Assembly: GCA_963675595.2 (NCBI GenBank)
Contig: CAXXLZ010000002.1
Span: 2,464,001-2,528,000 of the forward strand
DNA length: 64,000 nucleotides
DNA from: Thermodesulfobacteriota bacterium
GTDB lineage: Bacteria; Desulfobacterota; Desulfarculia; JACQYL01
Direction: 5' to 3'
In this document: positions 4,265 to 17,649 of the stretch, piece by piece
Layout: every line of letters starts with the position of its first letter
Position numbering within the stretch: position 1 is the first letter of the stretch
Program-made: the position numbers and the translations under genes
The notes under the pieces: model-generated
Database searches by the model: none
What the model was told of the DNA's origin: nothing
The model's input: the letters and a program-made list of their open reading frames with translations, nothing else

Positions 4265-5587
4265 ATGGCCCAAAAACACATCGGATCGGGTTGGAAGTGG
4301 TGGATGGTTCTCCTGTTGGTGCTCGTTATGAACGTGGGAGGGTTGGCTTTCGGGCAGGCTACCACTGAGTGGATCAGTGTGTCTTACGACACGTTGTCAT
4401 CGGCTTATCACAGCAACCACCCAGGAATTACATCAGATGGGCGATATGTGTCGTTCGGCTCCGACGCGAGAGACATAATCGTCGGAGATAACAACAACTA
4501 TTCGGACGTGTTCGTGTACGACCGCGAACTGGACGAATTTGAACTGGTTAGCGTATCATCTGGAGGCACGCAAGGAAACGGTGTGAGTTTCACCAACAGA
4601 ATTTCACCGGATGGCAGATATGTGGTGTTTGTCTCCAACGCAACCAATTTGGTCGCCGGAGATACCAACTCCATGTGGGACATTTTCGTTCATGATCGCG
4701 AAACCGGCAACACTGAGCGTGTGAGTGTGTCTACGGCGGTCACTCAGGCCAATAGTCACTGCTGGTACCCATGGATATCCGAGGGGGGCCGATATGTGGT
4801 TTTCGAGAGTTATGCAAGCAACTTGGTCGCCGGAGATACAAACGGCTACTCCGACGTGTTTCTCCGTGATCGGGAACTGAATACGACTACGAGAATCAGT
4901 GTGTCCGCAGACGGAACGCAAGGGAATGGAAATTCTTGCGGAGCGGTTATTTCCGCAGATGGAGACTACGTCTCGTTTACGTCCGGCTCGAGCAATCTCA
5001 TCGACTGCGACACCAACGGAGTGGCCGATGTTTTCGTGGTGCAGCTCAGCACCGGGACCGTCAGGAGGATCAGCGTCCCATCGGGAGGGTGCTCCGAAGC
5101 CAATGGAGCAAGTGACATTTTCGCCAGAATGAGCATGAACTCCCGCTACGTGACTTTCATCTCCTCCGCTACGAATTTGGTTCCCGACGATACCAACGGG
5201 CATGCAGACATTTTCGTACACGACCTGGTAAGTGGATACACGGAACGAGTGAGTGTGGCATCGGACGGCACCCAGGCCAACGAGACCAGTTATCACCCGA
5301 GTGTTTCCTTGGACGGCAGGTTTGTGGTGTTCGGATCCGCAGCTACAAACTTGGTACCCAATGACACCAATGGATACGTCGACGTGTTCCTCCGGGACCG
5401 GCTCGAAGGCACCACCATCCGCATCAGCGAGGCGGACGACGGCACTCAGGGAAACAATCACAGCAACACAACCTTCATGGCGCAGGGTGTGCCCTACGCC
5501 GCGTATGTATCCCTGGCAAGCACCATTGTTTTCGGAGATACCAACGGTCGAAGGGACATCTTTCTTTACGGCCCGTTCGACGAGTAA
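4265..5587 (+). CDS. Secreted TolB-like/PD40 beta-propeller repeat protein
   Basis: Signal peptide; about 7 repeats of VSVxxxGTQxNxxS...ISxDGRYVxFxSxAxNLVxGDTN...DxFVxD. Confidence 0.85.
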   Translation: MAQKHIGSGWKWWMVLLLVLVMNVGGLAFGQATTEWISVSYDTLSSAYHSNHPGITSDGRYVSFGSDARDIIVGDNNNYSDVFVYDRELDEFELVSVSSGGTQGNGVSFTNRISPDGRYVVFVSNATNLVAGDTNSMWDIFVHDRETGNTERVSVSTAVTQANSHCWYPWISEGGRYVVFESYASNLVAGDTNGYSDVFLRDRELNTTTRISVSADGTQGNGNSCGAVISADGDYVSFTSGSSNLIDCDTNGVADVFVVQLSTGTVRRISVPSGGCSEANGASDIFARMSMNSRYVTFISSATNLVPDDTNGHADIFVHDLVSGYTERVSVASDGTQANETSYHPSVSLDGRFVVFGSAATNLVPNDTNGYVDVFLRDRLEGTTIRISEADDGTQGNNHSNTTFMAQGVPYAAYVSLASTIVFGDTNGRRDIFLYGPFDE

Positions 5588-8515: not shown

Positions 8516-10195
8516 ATGTCCGTAGTCCGACTGGCCGCCATGGCGACCCTCATATGTGCGCTTGTCGCCGCTTGTGCCCCGCGTCCGACCGGGGACGTCG
8601 GCACGCGGCCTACGGAGATGGGCCTGCTGGAAGACCCCGGCGGCCTCATGGACATCGGCCAAGCCGCCGCCCCGGACCGCGCCGGCGATTACCGCATGGA
8701 GCCGGGCAACCGCCTCTCCCTGGGCTTTTCCCTCTCCACCCTGTGGGTGCGCCTAGCCCTGGAACAAACGCCGCCCACCGGCTCCTGGGTGCTGGAGCTG
8801 CCCTCGCCCTGGCTGGATCGAGTGGAGCTCTATCTGCCCCGTCCCCATGGAGGCCGTCTCAGGTTGGCCACCGGCCTGCTGCTGCCGCCGGCACGGGCGG
8901 ACGCCGACTGCTTCGTGCTGACCGCCCCGGAGGACACTCCCCGGCACGGCTACGCCTATCTGCGCCTCAGCGCCCGCTTGTCCCTCAACGCGGCCCTCAA
9001 CATCCGGCCCAAAGCGGCGCTGGAAGGGCACGCGGTGCGGCGAGCCTATCTGCTGGGCGCCCTGTACGGCATCATGGGGGCCATGGTCATGGTCAACCTC
9101 CTGGTGTTCATCACCACCCGCGACCGGGCCTACCTGTATTATGTGCTCTATTTGTTCAGCATGAGCTTCCATCAGTTCTGCCTGCAGGGTCAGGTGCTGC
9201 TGCTGCCCACCTCGGCCTGGCCCCTGATCCCGCAACTCAGCCTGGGGATCACCTCGGTCATGTTCTTTTTCGGGGCCGCCTTTTGTCGCTCCTTCCTGCA
9301 CGTGCGGGTGAACGCCCCCATGTGCGCCCGCCTGCTCACCGGGGTGCAGGCGGCCGCGGTGGTGCTCATGGTGCTCGTCCTGGGGGGGCGCGTTTTTTGG
9401 GGTACCTGGCTGGCGCACTCCATGGCCCTGGTGGGGCCCCTGGTGGGCATTGCCGCCGGTTTTTTCGCCCTGGCCCGGGGCTTTCGGCCGGCCCGGTTCT
9501 ACCTGATCGCCTGGTTGGTGCTCCTGTTGGGGGCCATGGCCTGGGGAGCGTGGAGCATGGGACGGCATCTGCCCGTTCCCCTGGCGCTGGCCGATCGGGT
9601 AGCCACCATGCAGCGCGAGCGCCTGGTGCTGGCCCGACGGGAGCGGCGATACCGCCAAATGAGTGTCACCGACGAACTCACCGGGCTGTACAACGCGCGT
9701 TATTTCTGGGGTTGTTTGGACACGGAGATCGACCACGCCCTGGCCACCGGCCGTCCCTTGGGTTTGGTCCTGCTGGACGTGGACGACTTCAAGCTCTTCA
9801 ACGACACCCACGGCCACTTGGAGGGCGACCGAGTGCTGGCCGAGCTGGGCCGGCTGCTGTGGAACGCCGTGCGCCCCACGGACTCGCCCTGCCGTTACGG
9901 GGGCGAGGAGTTCGCCCTGGTGCTGCCCGACTCCGGAGATGAGGCCCTGCACCAGGTGGCCGAACGGGTACGGGCGACCCTGGCCTCCAGACCTTTCCCC
10001 CTGCAGACCGGCCGGGTGGTCACGGTAACCGCCAGCCTGGGCACCGCCCAGTTCCGGCCCGGCGACGACGCCAAGACCCTGATGGGGCGAGCCGACCGAG
10101 CCCTCTACCAAGCCAAGGCCCGAGGCAAGAACTGCACCGTCGTGGCGGATGAAGACCACCCCCCGCGACCCGACTTCACGATCCCGCCCGCATAG
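8516..10195 (+). CDS. 7TM-DISM sensor diguanylate cyclase
   Basis: DISM2-like extracellular part; 7TM-DISM TM region; TDELTGLYN, DVDDFKLFNDTHGH, RPTD I-site and GGEEF. Confidence 0.88.
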   Translation: MSVVRLAAMATLICALVAACAPRPTGDVGTRPTEMGLLEDPGGLMDIGQAAAPDRAGDYRMEPGNRLSLGFSLSTLWVRLALEQTPPTGSWVLELPSPWLDRVELYLPRPHGGRLRLATGLLLPPARADADCFVLTAPEDTPRHGYAYLRLSARLSLNAALNIRPKAALEGHAVRRAYLLGALYGIMGAMVMVNLLVFITTRDRAYLYYVLYLFSMSFHQFCLQGQVLLLPTSAWPLIPQLSLGITSVMFFFGAAFCRSFLHVRVNAPMCARLLTGVQAAAVVLMVLVLGGRVFWGTWLAHSMALVGPLVGIAAGFFALARGFRPARFYLIAWLVLLLGAMAWGAWSMGRHLPVPLALADRVATMQRERLVLARRERRYRQMSVTDELTGLYNARYFWGCLDTEIDHALATGRPLGLVLLDVDDFKLFNDTHGHLEGDRVLAELGRLLWNAVRPTDSPCRYGGEEFALVLPDSGDEALHQVAERVRATLASRPFPLQTGRVVTVTASLGTAQFRPGDDAKTLMGRADRALYQAKARGKNCTVVADEDHPPRPDFTIPPA

Positions 10196-10296
10196 GCGCC
10201 CGCCGGACCACCCATGTTCACTGGGGGAAATACCATGTTGGCCTCAGGTGCTCGATCGTTATGATGGAGCATCACCCAAACAGAAAGGAGACCAAC

Positions 10297-11385
10297 ATGG
10301 TAGCAACGAAAGTAACAGAATTGGCCAAGTTTTTGGAGCTGGATATCGACCGTGATTTCCACGTCGGGATCGACGTACACAAAAAGAGCTACCACGTGGC
10401 CGTGCTTCGCAGCGACGGCGAGGTGAAGACTTTTGTGTCCTCGGCCTCTCCGGAGGCCATCGTGGCCATGTTGCTCCCCCACTTGAGGCGCATCCGAGCC
10501 GTAGCCTACGAAGCGGGGCCCACCGGCTTCGGCCTTGCGCGCACTTTGGCCAAAGCCGGGTTCAGCGTGATCGTGGTGGCGCCGAGTCGGGTCCCTAGGC
10601 CGGTGACTGCGGGGGCCAAGACCGACCGCCTGGATTGCATGCGGTTGGCGGACCATGCCGCCCGAGGGATATTGAAGTCCATCGCCGTTCCCACGGAGGA
10701 AGAGGAGGCCGAACGCAGCGTAATTCGCCGTCGGCACGATCTGGCCGACGGCACTCGACGCGTTAAGCAGAGAATTCAATCCCTTCTGCTGTTTCACGGT
10801 GTGGAGGCGCCTCCCGGGCTCAATCATTGGGGCCGAAGCGCTGTGGCGCAACTTCGAAAGCTTCGTCTGCCGAAGGAGGCCAAAGCGACGCTGCTCAGCT
10901 TGCTCCGTGAGTTGAATTTCCTCACAAAGGAAAAAGCCTTCATGGAGGAAAGGACTTCCAGTGTGTGCGAGAAACCTGAACACTTTGAGGAAATGCGATG
11001 CCTTCGAAGCGTCCCCGGGGTGGGTCCCATCACAGCGGCTACCTTCCTCCTGGAATTGTTTCGCCCGAGTCGGTTCCATCGGGTGGAGGAAGTGACCAGC
11101 TATCTGGGACTCGCACCGTTGGTAAGACAAAGCGGAGAGCGGAAATCTCGAGTGGCGCTTCCTCCCGTGGGTCAGACGCGACTGCGGAGTCTGTTGGTGG
11201 AGGCGGCCTGGACGTGGAAGTCCAGGGATCCGGCCATTGATTCGCATTATCGAAAACTCCTGTCGCGAACGGGCCTTCCACAAAAGGCCATTTGTGCGTT
11301 GGCACGGAAACTGGCCGTTGTTCTATGGCGATTGACCATGGAAAAACGGACCTATGAATTTCGTCTCCAAGCGGACCAAGCATGA
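10297..11385 (+). CDS. IS110-family DEDD recombinase/transposase
   Basis: VGIDVHK, YEAGPTG and KTDRLD (D-E-D-D); VPGVGPITA and RQSG catalytic Ser region; AAGGAG RBS. Confidence 0.95.
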   Translation: MVATKVTELAKFLELDIDRDFHVGIDVHKKSYHVAVLRSDGEVKTFVSSASPEAIVAMLLPHLRRIRAVAYEAGPTGFGLARTLAKAGFSVIVVAPSRVPRPVTAGAKTDRLDCMRLADHAARGILKSIAVPTEEEEAERSVIRRRHDLADGTRRVKQRIQSLLLFHGVEAPPGLNHWGRSAVAQLRKLRLPKEAKATLLSLLRELNFLTKEKAFMEERTSSVCEKPEHFEEMRCLRSVPGVGPITAATFLLELFRPSRFHRVEEVTSYLGLAPLVRQSGERKSRVALPPVGQTRLRSLLVEAAWTWKSRDPAIDSHYRKLLSRTGLPQKAICALARKLAVVLWRLTMEKRTYEFRLQADQA

Positions 11386-11600
11386 GCCGGTTAGGACTTG
11401 TTTAGGAGAACCCAACCGGCTCGGGACCCATACTTGAGGTGGGTCCCGAGCCTCAAGCCGGGAGAAAAAAGCGGAGACGGCCGCGATAAAGTTTGGCTGC
11501 ATCGGTAGCGCTGGGGAAATGGCGGCATCTTCGCTTCTACATCGCATGTGTACTTGGCGCTTCGGGCGCGAATAGGAAACGGTTATCCAATTCCGGCTTG
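11386..11600 (+). ncRNA. Putative bridge/seek RNA of IS copy 1
   Basis: Structured 3' NCR with internal loops carrying CTGGGGAAA/AAAGTTT (target match) and ATAGGAAA/CATGTGTACTT (donor match); transcript boundaries unknown. Confidence 0.75.
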
Positions 11601-11620
11601 ACTTGAGGCCACATAGGAAA

Positions 11621-11690
11621 CTTTCGAGAAAGTTACCCCCAGTCCCCTTTCCAAGCTCTTCAAGAACGCCTCACCGCCTTCGGCGGAGAG
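11621..11690 (+). repeat. Right part of REP family A copy interrupted by IS copy 1 (left part 10221-10230)
   Basis: Removing the IS gives the hairpin CTGGGGGAAACTTTC-GA-GAAAGTTACCCCCAG followed by ...CCTCACCGCCTTCGGCGGA. Confidence 0.85.
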
Positions 11691-11718
11691 GAGAGAGATA
11701 AGCAGGCCTTGGGCGCTA

Positions 11719-11979
11719 TTATAGCTTTTGCAGCAAAAATTCCTCCATCTTGCTTTTATTAATGGCGATACGAGGGGGCACCCATTCGTTATTCAAAAAG
11801 ACATTTGTCGAACCTTTGAATTTATGGGCATGCGGTTTGGCCTCTTCCGAATCGAGAGTGTATATCTTCACGTCCAGTCTTCCCTCGAATTTTTCCCGCA
11901 TGTCTTCGGCTACACCTATAGCCCTTCCGCATGCGATTCAACGGGCATTGCCGCTGTGAAACACGATCAACTCAGCCAT
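11719..11979 (-). CDS. Small thioredoxin-like selenoprotein (UxxC), 86 aa, in-frame TGA at 11940-11938
   Basis: AAGGAGG RBS then MAELIVFHSGNAR-TGA-IACGRAIGVAEDMREKF...; SECIS-like hairpin immediately 3' of the UGA. Confidence 0.8.
11897..11935 (-). promoter_or_regulatory. Bacterial SECIS-like hairpin
   Basis: mRNA CGCAUG...GGCUAU-AGGU-GUAGCC...CAUGCG; apical stem begins 14 nt after UGA. Confidence 0.7.
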
Positions 11980-12111
11980 TTTCCGTTCCTCCTTATTTCC
12001 GGTTCGGTAGCTGTTGGAGGTCGAATGGATTCACTGTATTCTTCCTTGTTCATAGCACGTCCGGCCGACATTTTCCTGCGAGTTGATTTGACCACCGCTC
12101 TATAGAGATTC

Positions 12112-12189
12112 ACTGTGGGAAACTTTCGGGAACGTTTCCCACAGTTCCTCTTCCAAGCTCTTCAAGAAGGCCTCACCGCCTTCGGCGGA
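12112..12189 (+). repeat. REP family A, empty (uninserted) copy
   Basis: ACTGTGGGAAACTTTCGGGAACGTTTCCCACAGT...TTCCAAGCTCTTCAAGAAGGCCTCACCGCCTTCGGCGGA; near-identical to the IS-flanking sequence. Confidence 0.85.
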
Positions 12190-12237
12190 ATGAAATGCGG
12201 CTTGTGCGCCGAAAAACCATCCAGAGGGATCGGTCGG

Positions 12238-12987
12238 CTAAACGATGCCGCCGTTCACATAGATTGTCTGGCCGTTCACCCAGCCGGCATCCGGACCGAC
12301 CAGAAACGCCACGGCATCGGCGATGTCCTCAGGCCGACCGAGCCGCTCCAACGGCGGCATCTTGGCCAATTGTTCGACCTGTTCGTCCGTTTTGTTTTTC
12401 AGAAAAAGGTCGGTTGCCGTTGGTCCGGGTGCGACGGCGTTCACCGTAACGTTTCGGCCGCGCAATTCCTTGGCGAAGATATTCGTCAGCGTCGCCACGG
12501 CGGATTTCGTGGCCGCGTACACCGAATAGCCGGGCAAGCCGAGCTTGCGCACGCTGGAAGAAAGATTGACGATTCGCCCGCCGTCGCGCAGTTTTCCGGC
12601 TGCAACCCGCAGTGTGTTGAATGTGCCCTTGAAATTGACGGCGACAATTTTGTCGAAAAGCGCATCATCCGTATCGGCCAGAGAAATCAGGCCCGGCTGC
12701 ATGATTCCGGCGTTATTCACGAGAATATCAACACCGCCGAAAAGCGCGGCGGTTTGGTCGAACATGGCCGCCACCTGCCCGGGCACCGAAACATCGGCCT
12801 GGATCGCCACTGCTCGGCCTGGTCCGGCTTCGATCTCTCGCACTACGACATCGGCTGCATCGGCCCGACCCGCATAGTTTACAATTACGGCGATGCCGTC
12901 GGCGGCCAGACGTTTGGCAATGGCTGCGCCGATTCCGCGCGATGATCCTGTGACAATGGCCACTTTGGTTTCCGTTGAAGTCTTCAT
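12238..12987 (-). CDS. Short-chain dehydrogenase/reductase (SDR)
   Basis: TGSSRGIG, NNAG and YAATK motifs. Confidence 0.93.
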   Translation of the reverse strand: MKTSTETKVAIVTGSSRGIGAAIAKRLAADGIAVIVNYAGRADAADVVVREIEAGPGRAVAIQADVSVPGQVAAMFDQTAALFGGVDILVNNAGIMQPGLISLADTDDALFDKIVAVNFKGTFNTLRVAAGKLRDGGRIVNLSSSVRKLGLPGYSVYAATKSAVATLTNIFAKELRGRNVTVNAVAPGPTATDLFLKNKTDEQVEQLAKMPPLERLGRPEDIADAVAFLVGPDAGWVNGQTIYVNGGIV

Positions 12988-13096
12988 GGCAGCCTCCTTT
13001 GTTCTGTTTGAATGCTTTATACTTCACCGACAATATGGTACCGAGTTTTGAATTTCGGTAGACGCATAAACGGCATGACGGCTATACTGTTTTGGT

Positions 13097-14017
13097 ATGA
13101 CCGTATTCGACGACCTCTCTTTGGTTCGGGCTTTCGTCTGCATCGTGGAAAACGGCGGCATTTCCGCTGCGGCCCGCAAGCTCCGGCGAACTCAACCGAC
13201 GCTGAGCCGTTATTTGCGCACACTGGAAGATCGCTGCGGCACCGTATTGCTGTATCGGGATACGCACCGCATACGCCTCTCGTCCGCCGGCCATCAATTC
13301 TTGGAGGACGCGCGATCCCTCCTGGCATTGGCGGAAGAAGCCGAACAACGCCTGCGCAACGACCAGGCAACCCTTCAGGGTAATATCCGCCTGTTCGCGA
13401 CCATCGACTTCGGCCAAAGTGTCGTCAGCCGCATGATTACCGGTTTTATTCAGGCCAACCCCGCCGTAACCATCGACCTGGCTTATTCCAACCGCCCTTT
13501 GCATATGCTCGAAGAAGGATGCGATGTCGGCATCGTCGCGGGCGCCGTCACGGATGATACGGTTGTCGCATGCTCCATCGGCCCCATTAAACGCTATCTT
13601 GTCGCCTCTCCAGCGCTCCTGAGAACGCATAAAGCCGTTTCCAGCCCCATGGAACTTCAATCCTGGCCGTGGTTGACGTTGTCCGGCGCGCAATTCGGCG
13701 GTGGGCGGGAAGTAACGCTTTATTCGTCGGAACAAGAAGAACAGAAGTTGACCGTATCACCGGTCATGACATCCGAAGGTGTGAGCAGTCTGCGTGAAGC
13801 GGTACGTTTGGGGCTTGGGATCGCCGTTTTACCGGAATGGCTGATTGAGGAGGACATTGTTTCGGGCCGGCTTATCAGGGTTCTGCCTGAGTGGCGAAGC
13901 GGAAACCTACCGGCCCACATCGTTTACCCGGTGCAGCGACGCTTGCCGTCGCGCGTCCGAACTTTCATTGACTTTGCGACCGCTTATATGACCACGGTTT
14001 TGCAGTCAGGTAGGTGA
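13097..14017 (+). CDS. LysR-family transcriptional regulator (divergent from the SDR)
   Basis: N-terminal HTH (ISAAARKLRRTQPTLSR); CrgA-like substrate-binding domain. Confidence 0.93.
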   Translation: MTVFDDLSLVRAFVCIVENGGISAAARKLRRTQPTLSRYLRTLEDRCGTVLLYRDTHRIRLSSAGHQFLEDARSLLALAEEAEQRLRNDQATLQGNIRLFATIDFGQSVVSRMITGFIQANPAVTIDLAYSNRPLHMLEEGCDVGIVAGAVTDDTVVACSIGPIKRYLVASPALLRTHKAVSSPMELQSWPWLTLSGAQFGGGREVTLYSSEQEEQKLTVSPVMTSEGVSSLREAVRLGLGIAVLPEWLIEEDIVSGRLIRVLPEWRSGNLPAHIVYPVQRRLPSRVRTFIDFATAYMTTVLQSGR

Positions 14018-14293
14018 ATCCAACTGTTTCAAGACAAAGAAACCAAAAGAGGCCTGACCCTTTCGGCTTGGCTTGAAAAGAGGTTTGCAGCCCTTCAACG
14101 GAAGGAGTATTTATTAGGTAGATCTAGAGCAAGAGCCTCGTACCGGTTTGAAAGGAGTCACGGCGTGGGTTCCTTCGGTTTCGAGGCGGTTTCCGTCCCC
14201 ATGAGGACGGAGCCCATCCCGTGAGCTTCTTTGCCCATTCAGAAGAGGTAAGGAACGTTGGAAATGGGCGAGCAGCCCTTCTTTCCCCCCGGG

Positions 14294-14368
14294 CTCTCCG
14301 CTGAATGCGGTGAGGCCTGTCCAACGTGCAAGGTGGCTCGGGGGAGGACTTTCCCGAAAGTCCTCCCC
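14294..14368 (-). repeat. REP family A (GGAGGACTTT variant)
   Basis: GGTGAGGCCTGTCCAACGTGC...GGGGGAGGACTTTCCCGAAAGTCCTCCCC; same as 6612-6693. Confidence 0.8.
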
Positions 14369-14419
14369 TGTGAAGGATTCCCTCGTTTCGTCTTTGCTGC
14401 GTCCCTCCGGGAAGAAAGG

Positions 14420-16012
14420 ATGTGGAAAATGAGGATTCGGCTTGCGGTATTCGCTCTTGTCCTGATTTTCGCGGCTGTTCTCTGTTCCTGCGACTCCGGT
14501 ACCAAAACGGACGGCGTTCCCGGCGACAACAAGGTCCCGGCCTCCGTCCTAGCCCTGGCCTCCTCCGTGACCGAGGACCTGGAGGCCCGGGGGTACGAGG
14601 TGGTGCGAGGCTACATGCAGCTCTTCACCATGGACGATTGCGCCCTGGCCATCGCCAAGACGGGCCAGTGCTTCGGCAACAACCCCACCGGACCTTATGT
14701 CTTTCCCGTGGTTCCCGCCTGGTCCGAGGAATACATCGACCCCACCACCCTCAACGTCTTCGGGGAAAACGCGGACGGGTACCTGACCATTCGGCGCTTC
14801 GACCCGCGGGAAGCGACCCTGGTCTTCGGCGTCATGCCGCCGGCGGCCCGCTACTTCGGCTTGCAGACCTACCAGTACACCCGCGAGGGCACGGTGGATA
14901 CCGACAACGAGGTGTATCAGTTGGTGCTGAACACCTTCCCCTTCATGCTGGACCAGTTCTTCGGCCCCGCACCCAACGGGCGGCTCCTTTCTTTCGCCAG
15001 CATCAGCAACAACAATAACAACGCGGTGTTCGAGCGCCGGGCCGGCTCCTTTTTCGATCAAGTGCGGTTCTTCGTCGTCACTCCGGACCAGGCCATGGAC
15101 ACGGCCGTGCGCGCGGCCCTCGCCCGGGCCGAGGTTTCCGACAGCGACATCGTCACCGAATCCATCGCCTCTCCGGTAACCCTGGGCCTGGACAAGGAAG
15201 CGGACGACCTCATCACCGTGATACGCTACGCCCTGCCGGACGACGAGGAAGCCGGAGAGTTGTGGCGCCATGACCTTCCCCTGGTGGTATTACGCGTGCG
15301 GGACCGCGGCGACCGGGCTCCGGAACCCTGGCCCGCTTTCGAGCACCCCCAGGAACGCTTCGACACGAGCGAACTCTATCTTTCAACCGACTTGAATGCC
15401 TTGAACAACAACGTTCGTGCCGCCTGGGGCCTCGACCCGGCCCCCAGCCCGCCCGGCGTGGCCGACCGCATGCTGGACCTTCAACGGGCCTACCCCTTCG
15501 ATCTGGTGGGACCGGACTGCATCCGGAACACCATGAACTGCCTGGCCGACACCCAGGACACCTCCTATGCCGGCACCGCCAACGTGTATCTGGAAAACGA
15601 CGCCGGCGACCAGTTCCTTTATGCCGTTGTCGGCACCCTGGGCACGGAAACGGGGAACGCCACCTACACCAGCCTGTCCGTGTACCGGGCCGCCGTGGTC
15701 ATGGGCGTGGCCAACGTGGACGACGGACAACTGCTGCAATCCCAGTCCTACTTTCCTCAAGAGCCCAACTCTTTCAACAACCAGGACAAGTTCTACCTCT
15801 GGTACTTCGGCCGGACCTGCGCGGCCGCGCCCGAAGCAATCTGCACCGAGATCAACGAGGACCAGATTCCCTTGGGCGAACCCATGAAGTTGGCCCTCCG
15901 GAACTACATCCGGCCCGGCGATGTCCGGGGGCCCAACACCGATCCGCCCGACGATCCCAAAGGCGTCAGTCCCCTGCTGCCGGCCTGGGTCACCGCCATT
16001 CCCCTGCCCTGA
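14420..16012 (+). CDS. Hypothetical lipoprotein
   Basis: Signal peptide with LCSC lipobox; long GC3-rich ORF with several Cys. Confidence 0.75.
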   Translation: MWKMRIRLAVFALVLIFAAVLCSCDSGTKTDGVPGDNKVPASVLALASSVTEDLEARGYEVVRGYMQLFTMDDCALAIAKTGQCFGNNPTGPYVFPVVPAWSEEYIDPTTLNVFGENADGYLTIRRFDPREATLVFGVMPPAARYFGLQTYQYTREGTVDTDNEVYQLVLNTFPFMLDQFFGPAPNGRLLSFASISNNNNNAVFERRAGSFFDQVRFFVVTPDQAMDTAVRAALARAEVSDSDIVTESIASPVTLGLDKEADDLITVIRYALPDDEEAGELWRHDLPLVVLRVRDRGDRAPEPWPAFEHPQERFDTSELYLSTDLNALNNNVRAAWGLDPAPSPPGVADRMLDLQRAYPFDLVGPDCIRNTMNCLADTQDTSYAGTANVYLENDAGDQFLYAVVGTLGTETGNATYTSLSVYRAAVVMGVANVDDGQLLQSQSYFPQEPNSFNNQDKFYLWYFGRTCAAAPEAICTEINEDQIPLGEPMKLALRNYIRPGDVRGPNTDPPDDPKGVSPLLPAWVTAIPLP

Positions 16013-16104
16013 CGCGGTATGAAATGCCTCTGGGGAAATACCATGTTGGCCTCAGGTGCTCGATCGTTATGATGGAGCATCACCCAAACAGAAAGGAGAC
16101 CAAC

Positions 16105-17193
16105 ATGGTAGCAACGAAAGTAACAGAATTGGCCAAGTTTTTGGAGCTGGATATCGACCGTGATTTCCACGTCGGGATCGACGTACACAAAAAGAGCTAC
16201 CACGTGGCCGTGCTTCGCAGCGACGGCGAGGTGAAGACTTTTGTGTCCTCGGCCTCTCCGGAGGCCATCGTGGCCATGTTGCTCCCCCACTTGAGGCGCA
16301 TCCGAGCCGTAGCCTACGAAGCGGGGCCCACCGGCTTCGGCCTTGCGCGCACTTTGGCCAAAGCCGGGTTCAGCGTGATCGTGGTGGCGCCGAGTCGGGT
16401 CCCTAGGCCGGTGACTGCGGGGGCCAAGACCGACCGCCTGGATTGCATGCGGTTGGCGGACCATGCCGCCCGAGGGATATTGAAGTCCATCGCCGTTCCC
16501 ACGGAGGAAGAGGAGGCCGAACGCAGCGTAATTCGCCGTCGGCACGATCTGGCCGACGGCACTCGACGCGTTAAGCAGAGAATTCAATCCCTTCTGCTGT
16601 TTCACGGTGTGGAGGCGCCTCCCGGGCTCAATCATTGGGGCCGAAGCGCTGTGGCGCAACTTCGAAAGCTTCGTCTGCCGAAGGAGGCCAAAGCGACGCT
16701 GCTCAGCTTGCTCCGTGAGTTGAATTTCCTCACAAAGGAAAAAGCCTTCATGGAGGAAAGGACTTCCAGTGTGTGCGAGAAACCTGAACACTTTGAGGAA
16801 ATGCGATGCCTTCGAAGCGTCCCCGGGGTGGGTCCCATCACAGCGGCTACCTTCCTCCTGGAATTGTTTCGCCCGAGTCGGTTCCATCGGGTGGAGGAAG
16901 TGACCAGCTATCTGGGACTCGCACCGTTGGTAAGACAAAGCGGAGAGCGGAAATCTCGAGTGGCGCTTCCTCCCGTGGGTCAGACGCGACTGCGGAGTCT
17001 GTTGGTGGAGGCGGCCTGGACGTGGAAGTCCAGGGATCCGGCCATTGATTCGCATTATCGAAAACTCCTGTCGCGAACGGGCCTTCCACAAAAGGCCATT
17101 TGTGCGTTGGCACGGAAACTGGCCGTTGTTCTATGGCGATTGACCATGGAAAAACGGACCTATGAATTTCGTCTCCAAGCGGACCAAGCATGA
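16105..17193 (+). CDS. IS110-family DEDD recombinase/transposase
   Basis: Translation identical to 10297-11385. Confidence 0.95.
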   Translation: MVATKVTELAKFLELDIDRDFHVGIDVHKKSYHVAVLRSDGEVKTFVSSASPEAIVAMLLPHLRRIRAVAYEAGPTGFGLARTLAKAGFSVIVVAPSRVPRPVTAGAKTDRLDCMRLADHAARGILKSIAVPTEEEEAERSVIRRRHDLADGTRRVKQRIQSLLLFHGVEAPPGLNHWGRSAVAQLRKLRLPKEAKATLLSLLRELNFLTKEKAFMEERTSSVCEKPEHFEEMRCLRSVPGVGPITAATFLLELFRPSRFHRVEEVTSYLGLAPLVRQSGERKSRVALPPVGQTRLRSLLVEAAWTWKSRDPAIDSHYRKLLSRTGLPQKAICALARKLAVVLWRLTMEKRTYEFRLQADQA

Positions 17194-17408
17194 GCCGGTT
17201 AGGACTTGTTTAGGAGAACCCAACCGGCTCGGGACCCATACTTGAGGTGGGTCCCGAGCCTCAAGCCGGGAGAAAAAAGCGGAGACGGCCGCGATAAAGT
17301 TTGGCTGCATCGGTAGCGCTGGGGAAATGGCGGCATCTTCGCTTCTACATCGCATGTGTACTTGGCGCTTCGGGCGCGAATAGGAAACGGTTATCCAATT
17401 CCGGCTTG
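17194..17408 (+). ncRNA. Putative bridge/seek RNA of IS copy 2
   Basis: Same as 11386-11600 (AAAGTTT 17296-17302; CTGGGGAAA 17319-17327). Confidence 0.75.
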
Positions 17409-17428
17409 ACTTGAGGCCACATAGGAAA

Positions 17429-17497
17429 CTTTCGAGAAAGTCTCCCCCAGTCCCCTTCAAAGCTCTTCAAGAAGCCTCACCGCCTTCGGCGGAGAGG
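17429..17497 (+). repeat. Right part of REP family A copy interrupted by IS copy 2 (left part 16030-16038)
   Basis: CTTTCGAGAAAGTCTCCCCCAGTCCCCTTCAAAGCTCTTCAAGAAGCCTCACCGCCTTCGGCGGAGAGG. Confidence 0.85.
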
Positions 17498-17649
17498 GGG
17501 AAGAGGTGTGCGCCTTGCGTAGTAGAAATCCCGCGACTGCAGAAGGAGCACAAAAGGCATCGGGAGGACTCCGTGAACATGGATCCTGTTTCCGATAGAC
17601 ACTATAAGGTCGACGACGAAAGAGTCTTTCGCCCCCGATCCCCATCCCA

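What the first reader, a model, noticed from the sequence alone, without database searches (positions are those of the whole stretch)
11386..11620. IS1111-type element with a readable bridge RNA: target and donor guides visible in two internal loops
Seen in sequence: the 3' non-coding end has a 13-bp hairpin (GGCTCGGGACCCA/TGGGTCCCGAGCC) and a domain closed by CAAGCCGG/CCGGCTTG. Loop 1 is closed by GCCGC/GCGGC and capped by GCTGC-ATCG-GTAGC. It carries AAAGTTT (11488-11494, reverse complement of target AAACTTT) and CTGGGGAAA (11511-11519, equal to the left target flank plus core; 9/9 at site 2, 7/9 at site 1). Loop 2 is capped by GCGC-TTCGG-GCGC. It carries ATAGGAAA (11572-11579, equal to the element's right end plus core) and CATGTGTACTT (imperfect reverse complement of the left end AAATACCATG). 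Established: IS110/IS1111 DEDD recombinases use such bispecific bridge/seek RNAs, and IS1111-type elements encode them downstream of the transposase. Inference: this is an intact, potentially reprogrammable RNA-guided recombinase with a GGAAA-region core.
Basis: partly seen in the sequence, partly recalled or inferred. Interest (0 to 1): 0.88.

Follow-up and report, generated by a model that had tools for sequence, protein, structure and literature searches.

The report
IS1111-type insertion sequence with bridge RNA
This is a recently active mobile element whose own small RNA spells out both the genomic site it inserts into and its own ends, a guide-RNA recombination system first described in 2024, so it is a well-supported new example of a known kind.

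Summary
In detail: every motif is at the stated coordinates. Window 10231-11620 is a 1390-bp IS110-family element: a DEDD transposase gene, a 235-nt 3' non-coding region and subterminal inverted repeats. There are 2 identical copies in the window and 8 in the genome.

The non-coding region folds into an outer stem (11454-11461/11593-11600) enclosing two arms. In the target loop, AAAGTTT pairs with core+right flank and CTGGGGAAA equals left flank+core. In the donor loop, ATAGGAAA equals the right end+core.

The decisive evidence comes from homologues. [quoted passage not shown] Its helices covary. Each element's guides match its own flanks and right end and not those of others (0 of 20000 permutations in each of three tests).

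The core is at most AAA, not GGAAA. The left-end donor guide is the weakest part: alone it is not above chance.

RNA expression could not be tested. Bridge/seek RNAs of IS110/IS1111 elements were published in 2024, and NCBI already names the protein family 'RNA-guided transposase'. Verdict: new member of a known kind, moderate-to-low interest.

The parts
10228..10230 (+). Left copy of the core AAA (target side of the left junction). It is preceded by the left target ..CTGGGGG (copy 1).
10231..11620 (+). Insertion sequence, 1390 bp counted with one core copy: TACCATG...CACATAGGAAA. An identical second copy lies at 16039-17428.
   Evidence: Copies are identical from 10224 to 11633. There are 8 full copies in the genome at 99-100% identity.
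10231..10237 (+). Left end / right donor half-site TACCATG. TACC is opposite the donor-loop GTA(C); in most homologues the donor-loop bases are GGTA.
10235..10249 (+). Left subterminal inverted repeat ATGTTGGCCTCAGGT. Its partner is at 11601-11614.
   Evidence: Local alignment (alone not above chance: 98 of 2000 shuffles). The repeat covaries at both ends in homologues, e.g. GGCC to GACC in L030/L032 and GGTCTCC in L035 (read by eye).
10238..10265 (+). Promoter-like site TTGGCC-16-TATGAT upstream of the transposase gene (possible promoter of the integrated copy).
   Evidence: consensus match only
10297..11385 (+). Transposase gene, 362 aa from the ATG that follows AAGGAG (an upstream in-frame ATG at 10261 would give 374 aa). 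Candidate catalytic residues are D26, E72, D110 and D113, with S279-G280 in the motif GLAPLVRQSG.
   Evidence: Pfam PF01548 + PF02371. NF033542, 228.5 bits against a cutoff of 140. These residues are invariant in 22 sequences and present here.
11418..11452 (+). 13-bp hairpin GGCTCGGGACCCA/TGGGTCCCGAGCC, 1 nt before the outer stem. No U-tract follows it. It is seen only in this lineage and in L009; its role is unknown (possibly a 5' stem-loop of the long RNA).
   Evidence: no terminator-like site found
11454..11600 (+). Bridge/seek RNA domain, 147 nt, closed by CAAGCCGG/CCGGCTTG. The RNA ends were not determined.
11470..11536 (+). Target arm: stem AGCGGAGAC (11470-11478) with TCTTCGCTT (11528-11536), and stem GCCGC (11480-11484) with GCGGC (11522-11526).
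   Evidence: (helices 2 and 3: all 14 pairs show double changes)
11488..11494 (+). Right-target guide AAAGTTT in the 5' strand of the target loop (11485-11495). It is complementary to the top strand of core+right flank, AAACTTT.
11496..11509 (+). Cap hairpin of the target loop, GCTGC-ATCG-GTAGC.
   Evidence: helix 4: 94% of cells paired, 4 of 5 pairs with double changes
11511..11519 (+). Left-target guide CTGGGGAAA in the 3' strand of the target loop (11510-11521). It is identical to left flank+core, so it pairs with the bottom strand.
11545..11556 (+). 5' strand of the donor loop, CATGTGTACTTG. GTA(C)TT is opposite the left end AA(A)TAC. CATG could extend the pairing across a 1-nt bulge. The overlapping small hairpin ACAT-CGC-ATGT (11539-11549) is an alternative fold.
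   Evidence: This is the weak part.
11557..11569 (+). Cap hairpin of the donor loop, GCGC-TTCGG-GCGC.
   Evidence: helix 6: 100% of cells paired
11572..11579 (+). Left-donor guide ATAGGAAA in the 3' strand of the donor loop (11570-11580). It is identical to the right end+core at 11613-11620.
11598..11603 (+). TTGACT, the inferred -35 of a junction promoter. On a circularised element it would lie 17 nt before TACCAT (10231-10236).
   Evidence: Sequence. TTGA(C) is at the same place in the right ends of the homologues. A junction promoter is described for IS1111 elements in PMC11187229 section 8.
11601..11614 (+). Right subterminal inverted repeat ACTTGAGGCCACAT.
11613..11620 (+). Right end (left donor half-site) ATAGG plus core AAA.
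11621..11648 (+). Right target flank CTTTCGAGAAAGTTACCCCC..: the rest of a REP-like palindromic hairpin GGGGGAAACTTTC(GA/TC)GAAAGTTTCCCCC.
16039..17428 (+). Second, identical copy of the element. Its left flank CTCTGGGGAAA is the 9/9 match to the left-target guide.
12113..12144 (+). Unoccupied related hairpin CTGTGGGAAACTTTCGGGAACGTTTCCCACAG. It has 2 mismatches to the left-target guide.

Best explanation
Window 10231-11620 is an active IS110-family insertion sequence of the IS1111 layout. Its 3' non-coding region (about 11454-11600, + strand) encodes a bispecific bridge RNA, also called a long seekRNA. Bound to the DEDD transposase, the RNA would use its first internal loop to read the target on both strands. 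[quoted passage not shown] The second loop would read the joined ends of the circularised element. [quoted passage not shown] Recombination would occur at the shared AAA. The preferred target is one arm of a REP-like hairpin, GGGGGAAACTTTC..GAAAGTTTCCCCC. Shown here: the anatomy, the copy number, the insertion sites, the conserved covarying RNA fold, and the covariation of three of the four guides with their DNA partners across homologues. Inferred from published relatives: that the RNA is made (probably by read-through from the transposase promoter or from a junction promoter TTGACT-17-TACCAT on the circle), that it binds the transposase, and that changing the loops changes the specificity.
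For: Protein: PF01548 + PF02371. NF033542 'IS110 family RNA-guided transposase', 228.5 bits against a cutoff of 140. D26/E72/D110/D113/S279-G280 are invariant in 22 aligned sequences and present here.

Mobility: 8 copies at 99-100% identity in the genome. All 8 junctions read ..GGG(G/A)AAA|TACCATG ... ATAGGAAA|.., and 5 of 8 sites rebuild the same palindromic hairpin.

RNA fold: model R1 finds the RNA on the + strand downstream of the transposase gene. It gave 27 hits at E<=1 over 92 sources, 19 of them at E<1e-5. On that alignment 85.5% of cells are paired against 65.1% in shuffles, 32 of 34 pairs show double changes, 0 of 500 shuffles reach this, and slid partners give 31-46% paired. By my hand count from that table, about 56 of 719 cells are G-U wobbles. 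These would be A-C mismatches on the other strand, so the RNA is read on the transposase strand.

Guide versus DNA: the left-target guide against its own left flank gives a longest shared run of 7.33 on average, against 3.58 for non-cognate pairs (n=15). The right-target guide against its own right flank gives 7.40 against 3.64 (n=20). Both reach 0 of 20000 permutations. Examples: 9/9 in L027, L028, L031, L032 and L020, and 9-nt right-flank matches in L026, L028 and L043. The left-donor guide against the right terminus, located independently through TTGA..C[ACT]C, gives 7.79 of 8 against 5.96, with 8 distinct guide 8-mers and 0 of 20000 permutations.

Variability: the variable guide positions are hypervariable while the donor-loop 3' strand is nearly invariant.

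Literature: the guide order, top-strand match 5' of bottom-strand match, is the published IS1111 order (PMC11187229 section 9, read). The 147-nt domain is close to the reported long seekRNAs of 148-172 nt (Table 1 passage of PMC13604230).
Against: There is no RNA evidence: no RNA run was listed for this organism, so transcription, processing and protein binding are untested. The left-end (right-donor) guide is weak. Its longest exact match is 5 nt, reached in 3584 of 5000 shuffles, and a C opposite the last core A is a conserved mismatch. In most homologues this strand can also fold on itself (GUACC..GGUAC), which competes with guide use. The 3-bp stem closing the donor loop is poorly supported: 74.6% of cells are paired, and one of its pairs is unpaired in 14 of 23 sequences. 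Three of the 8 genomic sites do not match the right-target guide (flanks AACTCTCC, CCTTTGG, CCTTTTC), so target choice here rests mainly on the left guide plus core. Within this element alone the right-target 7-mer is not above chance (622 of 5000), and neither is the inverted-repeat alignment (98 of 2000). The alignment used for pair counting was fitted to the model. The homologues are related by descent, so the permutation counts overstate independence. Rfam 15 has no matching family.
Confidence: 0.9

Rival explanations
1. Only the target arm is a guide (a short seekRNA). The element's ends would be recognised by the protein through the subterminal inverted repeats. The 'donor loop' would then be a conserved protein-binding scaffold whose likeness to the right end has another cause.
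For: Siddiquee et al. describe a predominant short RNA (82-96 nt) carrying only the two target matches (PMC11187229 sections 8-9, read). The left-end guide here is not above chance, and its strand can fold on itself. The donor-loop closing stem is weak.
Against: The 8-nt 3' strand of the donor loop equals the right terminus in 14 of 19 elements and differs by one base in the other 5. It changes together with the terminus through 8 variants, with 0 of 20000 permutations reaching the observed sum. Across subfamilies the 5' strand changes from GGTA to ATTA where the left end changes from TACC to TAAT (few independent events, read by eye). Durrant et al. report donor-complementary bases in predicted IS1111 bridge RNAs (PMC11208160 section 12, passage read).
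Confidence: 0.07
2. No RNA is involved. The subterminal region would act as DNA: single-stranded or hairpin DNA guide segments pairing with the target, as in IS200/IS605 elements, or simple protein-binding sites.
For: Complementarity and stem covariation alone cannot tell DNA from RNA. No RNA data are available for this organism.
Against: About 56 of 719 paired cells are G-U wobbles (hand count), which are stable in RNA of the + strand only. The protein belongs to the family for which RNA guidance was shown by experiment and structure (PMC11208160; PMC11187229; PDB hits 8wt6 and 9t56). IS200/IS605 elements use an unrelated HUH transposase (recalled).
Confidence: 0.02
3. Chance resemblance: an ordinary structured 3' end whose loops happen to match the flanks.
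For: Two of the four matches in this element alone are not above chance.
Against: The three other matches together occur in 0 of 5000 shuffles. The same positions match the different flanks of about 20 homologues.
Confidence: 0.01

Closest known systems
IS1111-group elements with seekRNA (ISEc11, ISPa11, ISKpn4, ISPst6; Siddiquee et al. 2024, PMC11187229)
   Same: DEDD transposase with the GL-P----SG motif. Long non-coding region downstream of the gene. Subterminal inverted repeats with short terminal extensions. Top-strand target match 5' of the bottom-strand match, overlapping at the insertion point. Target in a folded repeat (ISPa11 targets a REP). Long RNA form of about 150 nt. Junction promoter on the circle.
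   Different: The transposase is 362 aa (reported range 330-350 aa). It is only 26% identical to IS5075 over 337 aa. The guides overlap on AAA rather than on the dinucleotides reported for those elements. The RNA has not been demonstrated here.
IS621 bridge RNA (Durrant et al. 2024, PMC11208160; Hiraizumi et al. 2024; PDB 8wt6)
   Same: Two loops, one for the target and one for the donor, target loop first. Each loop holds two guides that pair with opposite strands and overlap on the core. Variable target loop and conserved donor loop. Imperfect, discontiguous pairing of the right-donor guide. REP-type target.
   Different: The RNA lies at the 3' end, not the 5' end. The order of the guides within each loop is reversed. 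The core is A-rich and up to 3 nt, not CT. The protein matches IS621 only over residues 207-345 (E 3.9e-10).
ISPpu9 / ISPpu10 of Pseudomonas putida (PMC12288879; abstract only read)
   Same: IS110-family elements present in several copies inside REP sequences. ISPpu10 forms a hybrid junction promoter.
   Different: In ISPpu9 the downstream small RNA Ssr9 was reported as not required for transposition and as a separable module. Here the RNA carries the element's own target and end sequences. No sequence comparison was made.

Membership tests
IS110 family (DEDD, RNA-guided transposase) | N-terminal DEDD/RuvC-like domain plus the C-terminal Transposase_20 domain | tested here: met
   PF01548 E 1.4e-15 and PF02371 E 4.3e-22. 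NF033542 equivalog, 228.5 bits against a cutoff of 140.
IS110 family (DEDD, RNA-guided transposase) | Catalytic acidic residues and the conserved Ser-Gly are present | tested here: met
   D26, E72, D110, D113, S279 and G280 are invariant in 22 sequences and present here. Assigning them as the catalytic residues rests on recalled IS621 work; they were not superposed on a structure.
IS110 family (DEDD, RNA-guided transposase) | Site-specific insertion with a short shared core at both junctions and no terminal inverted repeats at the very tips | tested here: met
   All 8 junction pairs have AAA on both sides, and 7 of 8 have a GGGGAAA left flank.
IS1111 group | Subterminal inverted repeats of 7-17 bp | tested here: met
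   ATGT(T)GGCCTCA(G/A)GT at both ends (alone 98 of 2000 shuffles). Both ends change together in homologues L028, L030, L032, L035 and L020 (read by eye).
IS1111 group | Long non-coding region downstream of the transposase gene | tested here: met
   235 nt on the 3' side against 66 nt on the 5' side.
IS1111 group | C-terminal motif GL-P----S(t)G | tested here: met
   GLAPLVRQSG at residues 271-280. The motif is taken from PMC11187229 section 6.
IS1111 group | Transposase length 330-350 aa | tested here: not met
   362 aa, or 374 from the upstream ATG. Relatives are 353-364 aa. This is a descriptive range in PMC11187229, not a strict criterion.
IS1111 group | Placement inside the IS1111 clade of a transposase tree | not tested
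   No reference set was at hand. Only pairwise values exist: 26% to IS5075 over 337 aa, and a C-terminal-only match to IS621 and ISCro4.
Bridge RNA / seekRNA | Target loop with two guides that pair with opposite strands of the target and overlap at the core, covarying with the target across relatives | tested here: met
   (0 of 20000 permutations on each side)
Bridge RNA / seekRNA | Donor loop with guides for both element ends | tested here: inconclusive
   The left-donor guide is met. The right-donor guide is only GTA(C)TT here, not above chance, with a possible subfamily switch GGTA/TACC to ATTA/TAAT.
Bridge RNA / seekRNA | Conserved secondary structure supported by compensatory changes | tested here: met
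   the alignment was fitted to the model; RNAalifold on 3 sequences
Bridge RNA / seekRNA | The RNA is transcribed and bound by the transposase, and changing its loops redirects insertion | not testable with these tools
   No RNA holder was listed. This needs bench work.
Rfam families | Match to a curated covariance model | tested here: not met
   0 matches at E<=1 in 10000-12000 against Rfam 15

The most novel reading that the evidence does not exclude
This element and its roughly 20 sampled relatives would form a distinct, uncharacterised clade of 3'-encoded bridge recombinases. They have 353-364 aa transposases found in Desulfovibrionaceae, Geobacter, planctomycete and metagenome sequences, and are about 25% identical to both IS5075 and IS621. 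Their rules would differ from the studied systems in three ways. The core would be an A-run of 3-4 nt. Target choice would be dominated by the left guide. The right-donor guide would be kept masked in a conserved self-hairpin (GUACC-N5-GGUAC) with a built-in mismatch at the last core base. That hairpin could gate donor binding or bias insertion over excision.
Probability: 0.15. Interest if true: 0.5.

Novelty: new member of a known kind. Interest (0 to 1): 0.3.

Why it matters
For the biology of this genome, it explains why 8 identical copies sit in one arm of one REP-like hairpin family: the element carries a written copy of its address. For the field, it adds a clean, readable natural example of the IS1111-type arrangement. 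It also gives a set of about 20 relatives in which three of the four guide-DNA pairings can be read directly from sequence, which is useful for annotation because Rfam has no model, and it gives one more candidate ortholog for programmable recombination. It does not change what is known: the mechanism, the 3' location in IS1111 elements and the reversed guide order were all published in 2024.

Tried and rejected
Rfam 15 scan of 10000-12000 at E<=1: no family matched.

RNA evidence: no RNA holder was listed among the 6 runs that hold the stretch. The 4 runs laid were Logan contigs only. They break at the element's ends as expected for a repeat. They show no joint that skips the element, so no empty site was seen. 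A variant of the element in runs X4 and X5 has 10 substitutions and 1 inserted base, none inside the guide strands.

Empty site in relatives: the left flank 9600-10227 was searched in 20 relatives plus the own genome. It found only paralogous GGDEF-domain genes at 66-96% identity over partial lengths, and no orthologous locus.

Promoter for the RNA: the consensus scan found no sigma-70-like site in the 3' region and no intrinsic terminator anywhere in 10150-11750.

Placement in the IS1111 versus IS110 clades by a tree was not done, for want of reference sequences. Only pairwise comparisons were made.

The GGAAA core was considered and rejected (copy L007).

The 74-aa minus-strand ORF 11323-11547 was considered and set aside, because the region is explained by a covarying RNA on the + strand.

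L036's right junction (ATGAGAAA-T-AAAGCCCC) does not fit the simple model and stays unexplained. L015 and L038 gave no recognisable right terminus. L009, L029, L036, L040, L042 and L046 gave no left end (L009 is truncated; the others were not checked) and were left out of the left-side test. L023 was dropped as a duplicate of L011, and L031 was dropped from the left-side test because its left guide equals that of L027.

Supplementary files of the papers were not opened. Durrant et al.'s supplementary tables of predicted bridge RNAs may already list this clade.

Full report
**Observation.** These are the 13-bp hairpin at 11418/11440, the outer stem CAAGCCGG/CCGGCTTG at 11454/11593, GCCGC/GCGGC at 11480/11522, the two cap hairpins at 11496 and 11557, AAAGTTT at 11488-11494, CTGGGGAAA at 11511-11519, CATGTGTACTT at 11545 and ATAGGAAA at 11572-11579. 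The minimum-free-energy fold of 11386-11625 contains these helices plus one more stem, AGCGGAGAC/TCTTCGCTT. Its z-score is -4.2 against 200 shuffles.

**The element.** The ORF at 10261/10297-11385 carries PF01548 and PF02371. It scores 228.5 bits on NF033542, which NCBI now titles 'IS110 family RNA-guided transposase'. The window holds two copies that are identical from 10224 to 11633. The genome holds 8 full copies at 99-100% identity, a truncated 81%-identical relative that keeps the 3' half (L009), and a 73-nt left-end fragment (L010).

The 8 junction pairs read ..GGG(G/A)AAA|TACCATG at the left and ..CACATAGGAAA|.. at the right. Five sites rebuild the palindrome GGGGGAAACTTTC(GA/TC)GAAAGTTTCCCCC. 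The right flanks of the other three are AACTCTCC, CCTTTGG and CCTTTTC. The genome holds many unoccupied hairpins of this and sister types: 32 GGGAAACTTT sites, and 57 regular-expression hits (overlapping and occupied sites included). No empty site matches the 13-mer CTGGGGAAACTTT perfectly, and 18 differ by one base.

**Core.** Copy L007 has GGGAAAA at the left junction but GGAAA at the right. Position -4 therefore comes from the target at the left junction and from the element at the right one. The shared core is at most AAA, not GGAAA. Across the family the two target guides overlap only on AAA/TTT.

**Architecture.** The ends carry an imperfect subterminal inverted repeat, ATGT(T)GGCCTCA(G/A)GT. 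In this element alone it is not above chance (98 of 2000 shuffles). In homologues both ends change together, for example GACCATC with GATGGTC in L030 and L032, GGTCTCC with GGAGACC in L035, and GGCCATCT with AGATGGCC in L028 (read by eye). The long non-coding region is 3' of the gene, and the protein has GLAPLVRQSG. These are the IS1111-group features listed by Siddiquee et al. (PMC11187229 section 6, read). The transposase is 362 aa against their 330-350 aa. It is only 26% identical to IS5075 over 337 aa. It matches IS621 and ISCro4 structures only over its C-terminal part. No tree was made.

**Homologues and the RNA.** The protein search found a large family at 52-63% identity, with source names from Desulfovibrio and Geobacter. 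I fetched 15 loci from genomes and 80 from metagenomes. A covariance model built from the window, L009 and L011 was run over 92 sources. It found 27 hits at E<=1, 19 of them at E<1e-5, all on the transposase strand and downstream of the gene.

On the resulting alignment 85.5% of cells form standard pairs (shuffles 65.1%; slid partners 31-46%). Thirty-two of 34 pairs show changes on both sides, and 0 of 500 shuffles reach any of the five measures. The alignment was fitted to the model, which favours the structure. The three-sequence RNAalifold run predicted the same helices independently. About 56 of the 719 paired cells are G-U (my hand count), which argues for an RNA read on the + strand.

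**Guides against DNA.**
- Right end. In each homologue the 3' strand of the second loop repeats the right terminus: ATAGGAAA, ATAAGAAA, ATGAGAAA, ATAACAGA, ATAGCAGC or ATAGCAGG. With the terminus located independently of the guide, cognate identity is 7.79 of 8 against 5.96 for non-cognate pairs (n=19, 0 of 20000 permutations).
- Right flank. The bases after that terminus match the reverse complement of the 5' strand of the first loop. Examples are AAATTATAA in L026, AAAAGGGCC in L028, AGCCCCCAA in L043, AAAATCCG in L042, AAACGAAC/G in L027, L031, L032 and L034, and AATGACG in L040.
- Left flank. The bases before TACCATG match the 3' strand of the first loop. The match is 9/9 in L027, L028, L031, L032 and L020, and 8/9 in L026, L030, L034 and L035.
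- Permutation tests. The longest shared run is 7.33 cognate against 3.58 non-cognate on the left (n=15) and 7.40 against 3.64 on the right (n=20), with 0 of 20000 permutations on either side. The elements are related by descent and several share a target type, so the number of independent events is smaller than n.
- Variability. The variable guide positions are hypervariable, while the donor-loop 3' strand and its cap are nearly invariant.

**Within this element alone.** In 5000 shuffles the 9-nt and 8-nt matches are reached 40 and 46 times, the 7-nt right-target match 622 times, and all three together never.

**The weak part.** The strand CATGTGTACTTG gives only a 5-nt exact match to the left end, which 3584 of 5000 shuffles reach. 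Across homologues the conserved bases are GGTAC, opposite the left end TACC, followed by variable bases. The C stands opposite the last core A in nearly all of them. More distant members with left end TAAT carry ATTA at that place, which hints at real pairing but rests on few events.

In this lineage and in L009 the first G is lost. A CATG then appears that could pair with the CATG of TACCATG across one bulged base. Durrant et al. describe a discontiguous right-donor pairing in IS621 (PMC11208160 section 7, passage read). In most homologues this strand can also fold on itself (GUACC-N5-GGUAC, with paired changes in L037 and L040). The 3-bp stem that would close the donor loop is poorly supported.

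**Expression and promoters.** No RNA run was available. The contigs laid added only that a variant of the element elsewhere keeps the guide strands unchanged. No sigma-70-like promoter lies in the 3' region. On a circularised element TTGACT (11598-11603) would lie 17 nt before TACCAT (10231-10236). TTGA(C) is conserved at that place in the homologues. Siddiquee et al. found no promoter other than the junction promoter in ISEc11 and proposed that the short RNA derives from the long one (PMC11187229 section 8, read).

**Comparison with what is known.** Durrant et al. predicted bridge RNAs in 93.0% of the IS1111-group elements catalogued in ISfinder, placed in the right end (PMC11208160 section 12, passage read). 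Siddiquee et al. showed co-purifying 3' RNAs with the top-strand match 5' of the bottom-strand match, and showed reprogramming (PMC11187229, abstract and sections 8-9 read). The element here has this arrangement, which is the reverse of the IS621 order (PMC11208160 section 7). A 2026 review and a 2026 structural paper treat the class as established (PMC13604230 passages read; PMC13626964 abstract read).

**Verdict.** The thing is a new member of a known kind. Confidence in the bridge-RNA reading is 0.9. Interest is 0.3.

Noticed in passing
window 11621-16038: The two identical, directly oriented copies of the element bracket a 4.4-kb segment that carries a short-chain dehydrogenase gene (12238-12987, minus strand) and a LysR-type regulator gene (13097-14017). 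Recombination between the copies could delete or circularise this segment.
   Followed up: no
window 11616-11711, 12118-12213, 17424-17517; genome-wide: The target hairpin is part of a longer repeat of about 75-95 nt: hairpin, then GTCCCCTT(T)CAAAG.., then a second hairpin GCCTCACCGCCTTCGGCGGAG. The repeat occurs in both orientations. The genome holds several sister families of GGGGG(A)AAC(C)TTTT..AAAAG(G)TT(T)CCCCC palindromes (57 regular-expression hits, overlaps included).
   Followed up: partly
L009 (G000:C1:339438-339997, minus strand): A 5'-truncated relative, 81% identical, keeps the whole RNA. Its left-target guide is different (TCCTGCAAA) and its right-target guide is longer (AAACTTTAG), matching its own right flank CTTTAGG. 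It lies about 3 kb from a full copy (L006). Its left target cannot be read because the left end is missing.
   Followed up: partly
L010 (G000:C2:3813470-3813542): A solitary 73-nt left-end fragment of the element, 97% identical, with the left flank ..CAGCACGAAA|TACCATG.
   Followed up: no
homologue loci, alignment A3 columns 119-143: The 5' strand of the donor loop is a near-invariant self-complementary GUACC-N5-GGUAC in most relatives, with paired changes in L037 (GUAUC/GAUAC) and L040 (UUACC/GGUAA). In the window's lineage it is replaced by ACAU-CGC-AUGU (GCAU-CGC-AUGC in L009). It may mask the right-donor guide in the free RNA.
   Followed up: partly
L036 right junction; L015: L036 reads ATGAGAAA-T-AAAGCCCC, where the guides predict ATGAGAAAA and AAAAGCCCC; one base does not fit the model. 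L015 (a Gammaproteobacteria MAG, 55% identical) has an in-frame stop in the transposase gene and no recognisable right terminus, so it is probably decayed.
   Followed up: no
window 4439-5230: Four 90-nt direct repeats at spacings of 174, 174 and 354 nt, 63-70% identical to the reference copy. They look like a coding repeat in a large gene.
   Followed up: no
window 10224-11627 in runs X4 and X5: A second organism label in public runs carries a variant of the element with 10 substitutions and one inserted G (after 11459, in the outer stem). Eight substitutions lie in the transposase gene and two (11466, 11469) in the linker. None lies in the guide strands.
   Followed up: partly
window 11613-11640: The right end ATAGGAAA shares GGAAA with the target. 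The right junction therefore still forms a 10-bp version of the target hairpin (GGAAACTTTC..GAAAGTTTCC in copies with an intact far arm). The far arm also remains a valid target on the opposite strand.
   Followed up: no
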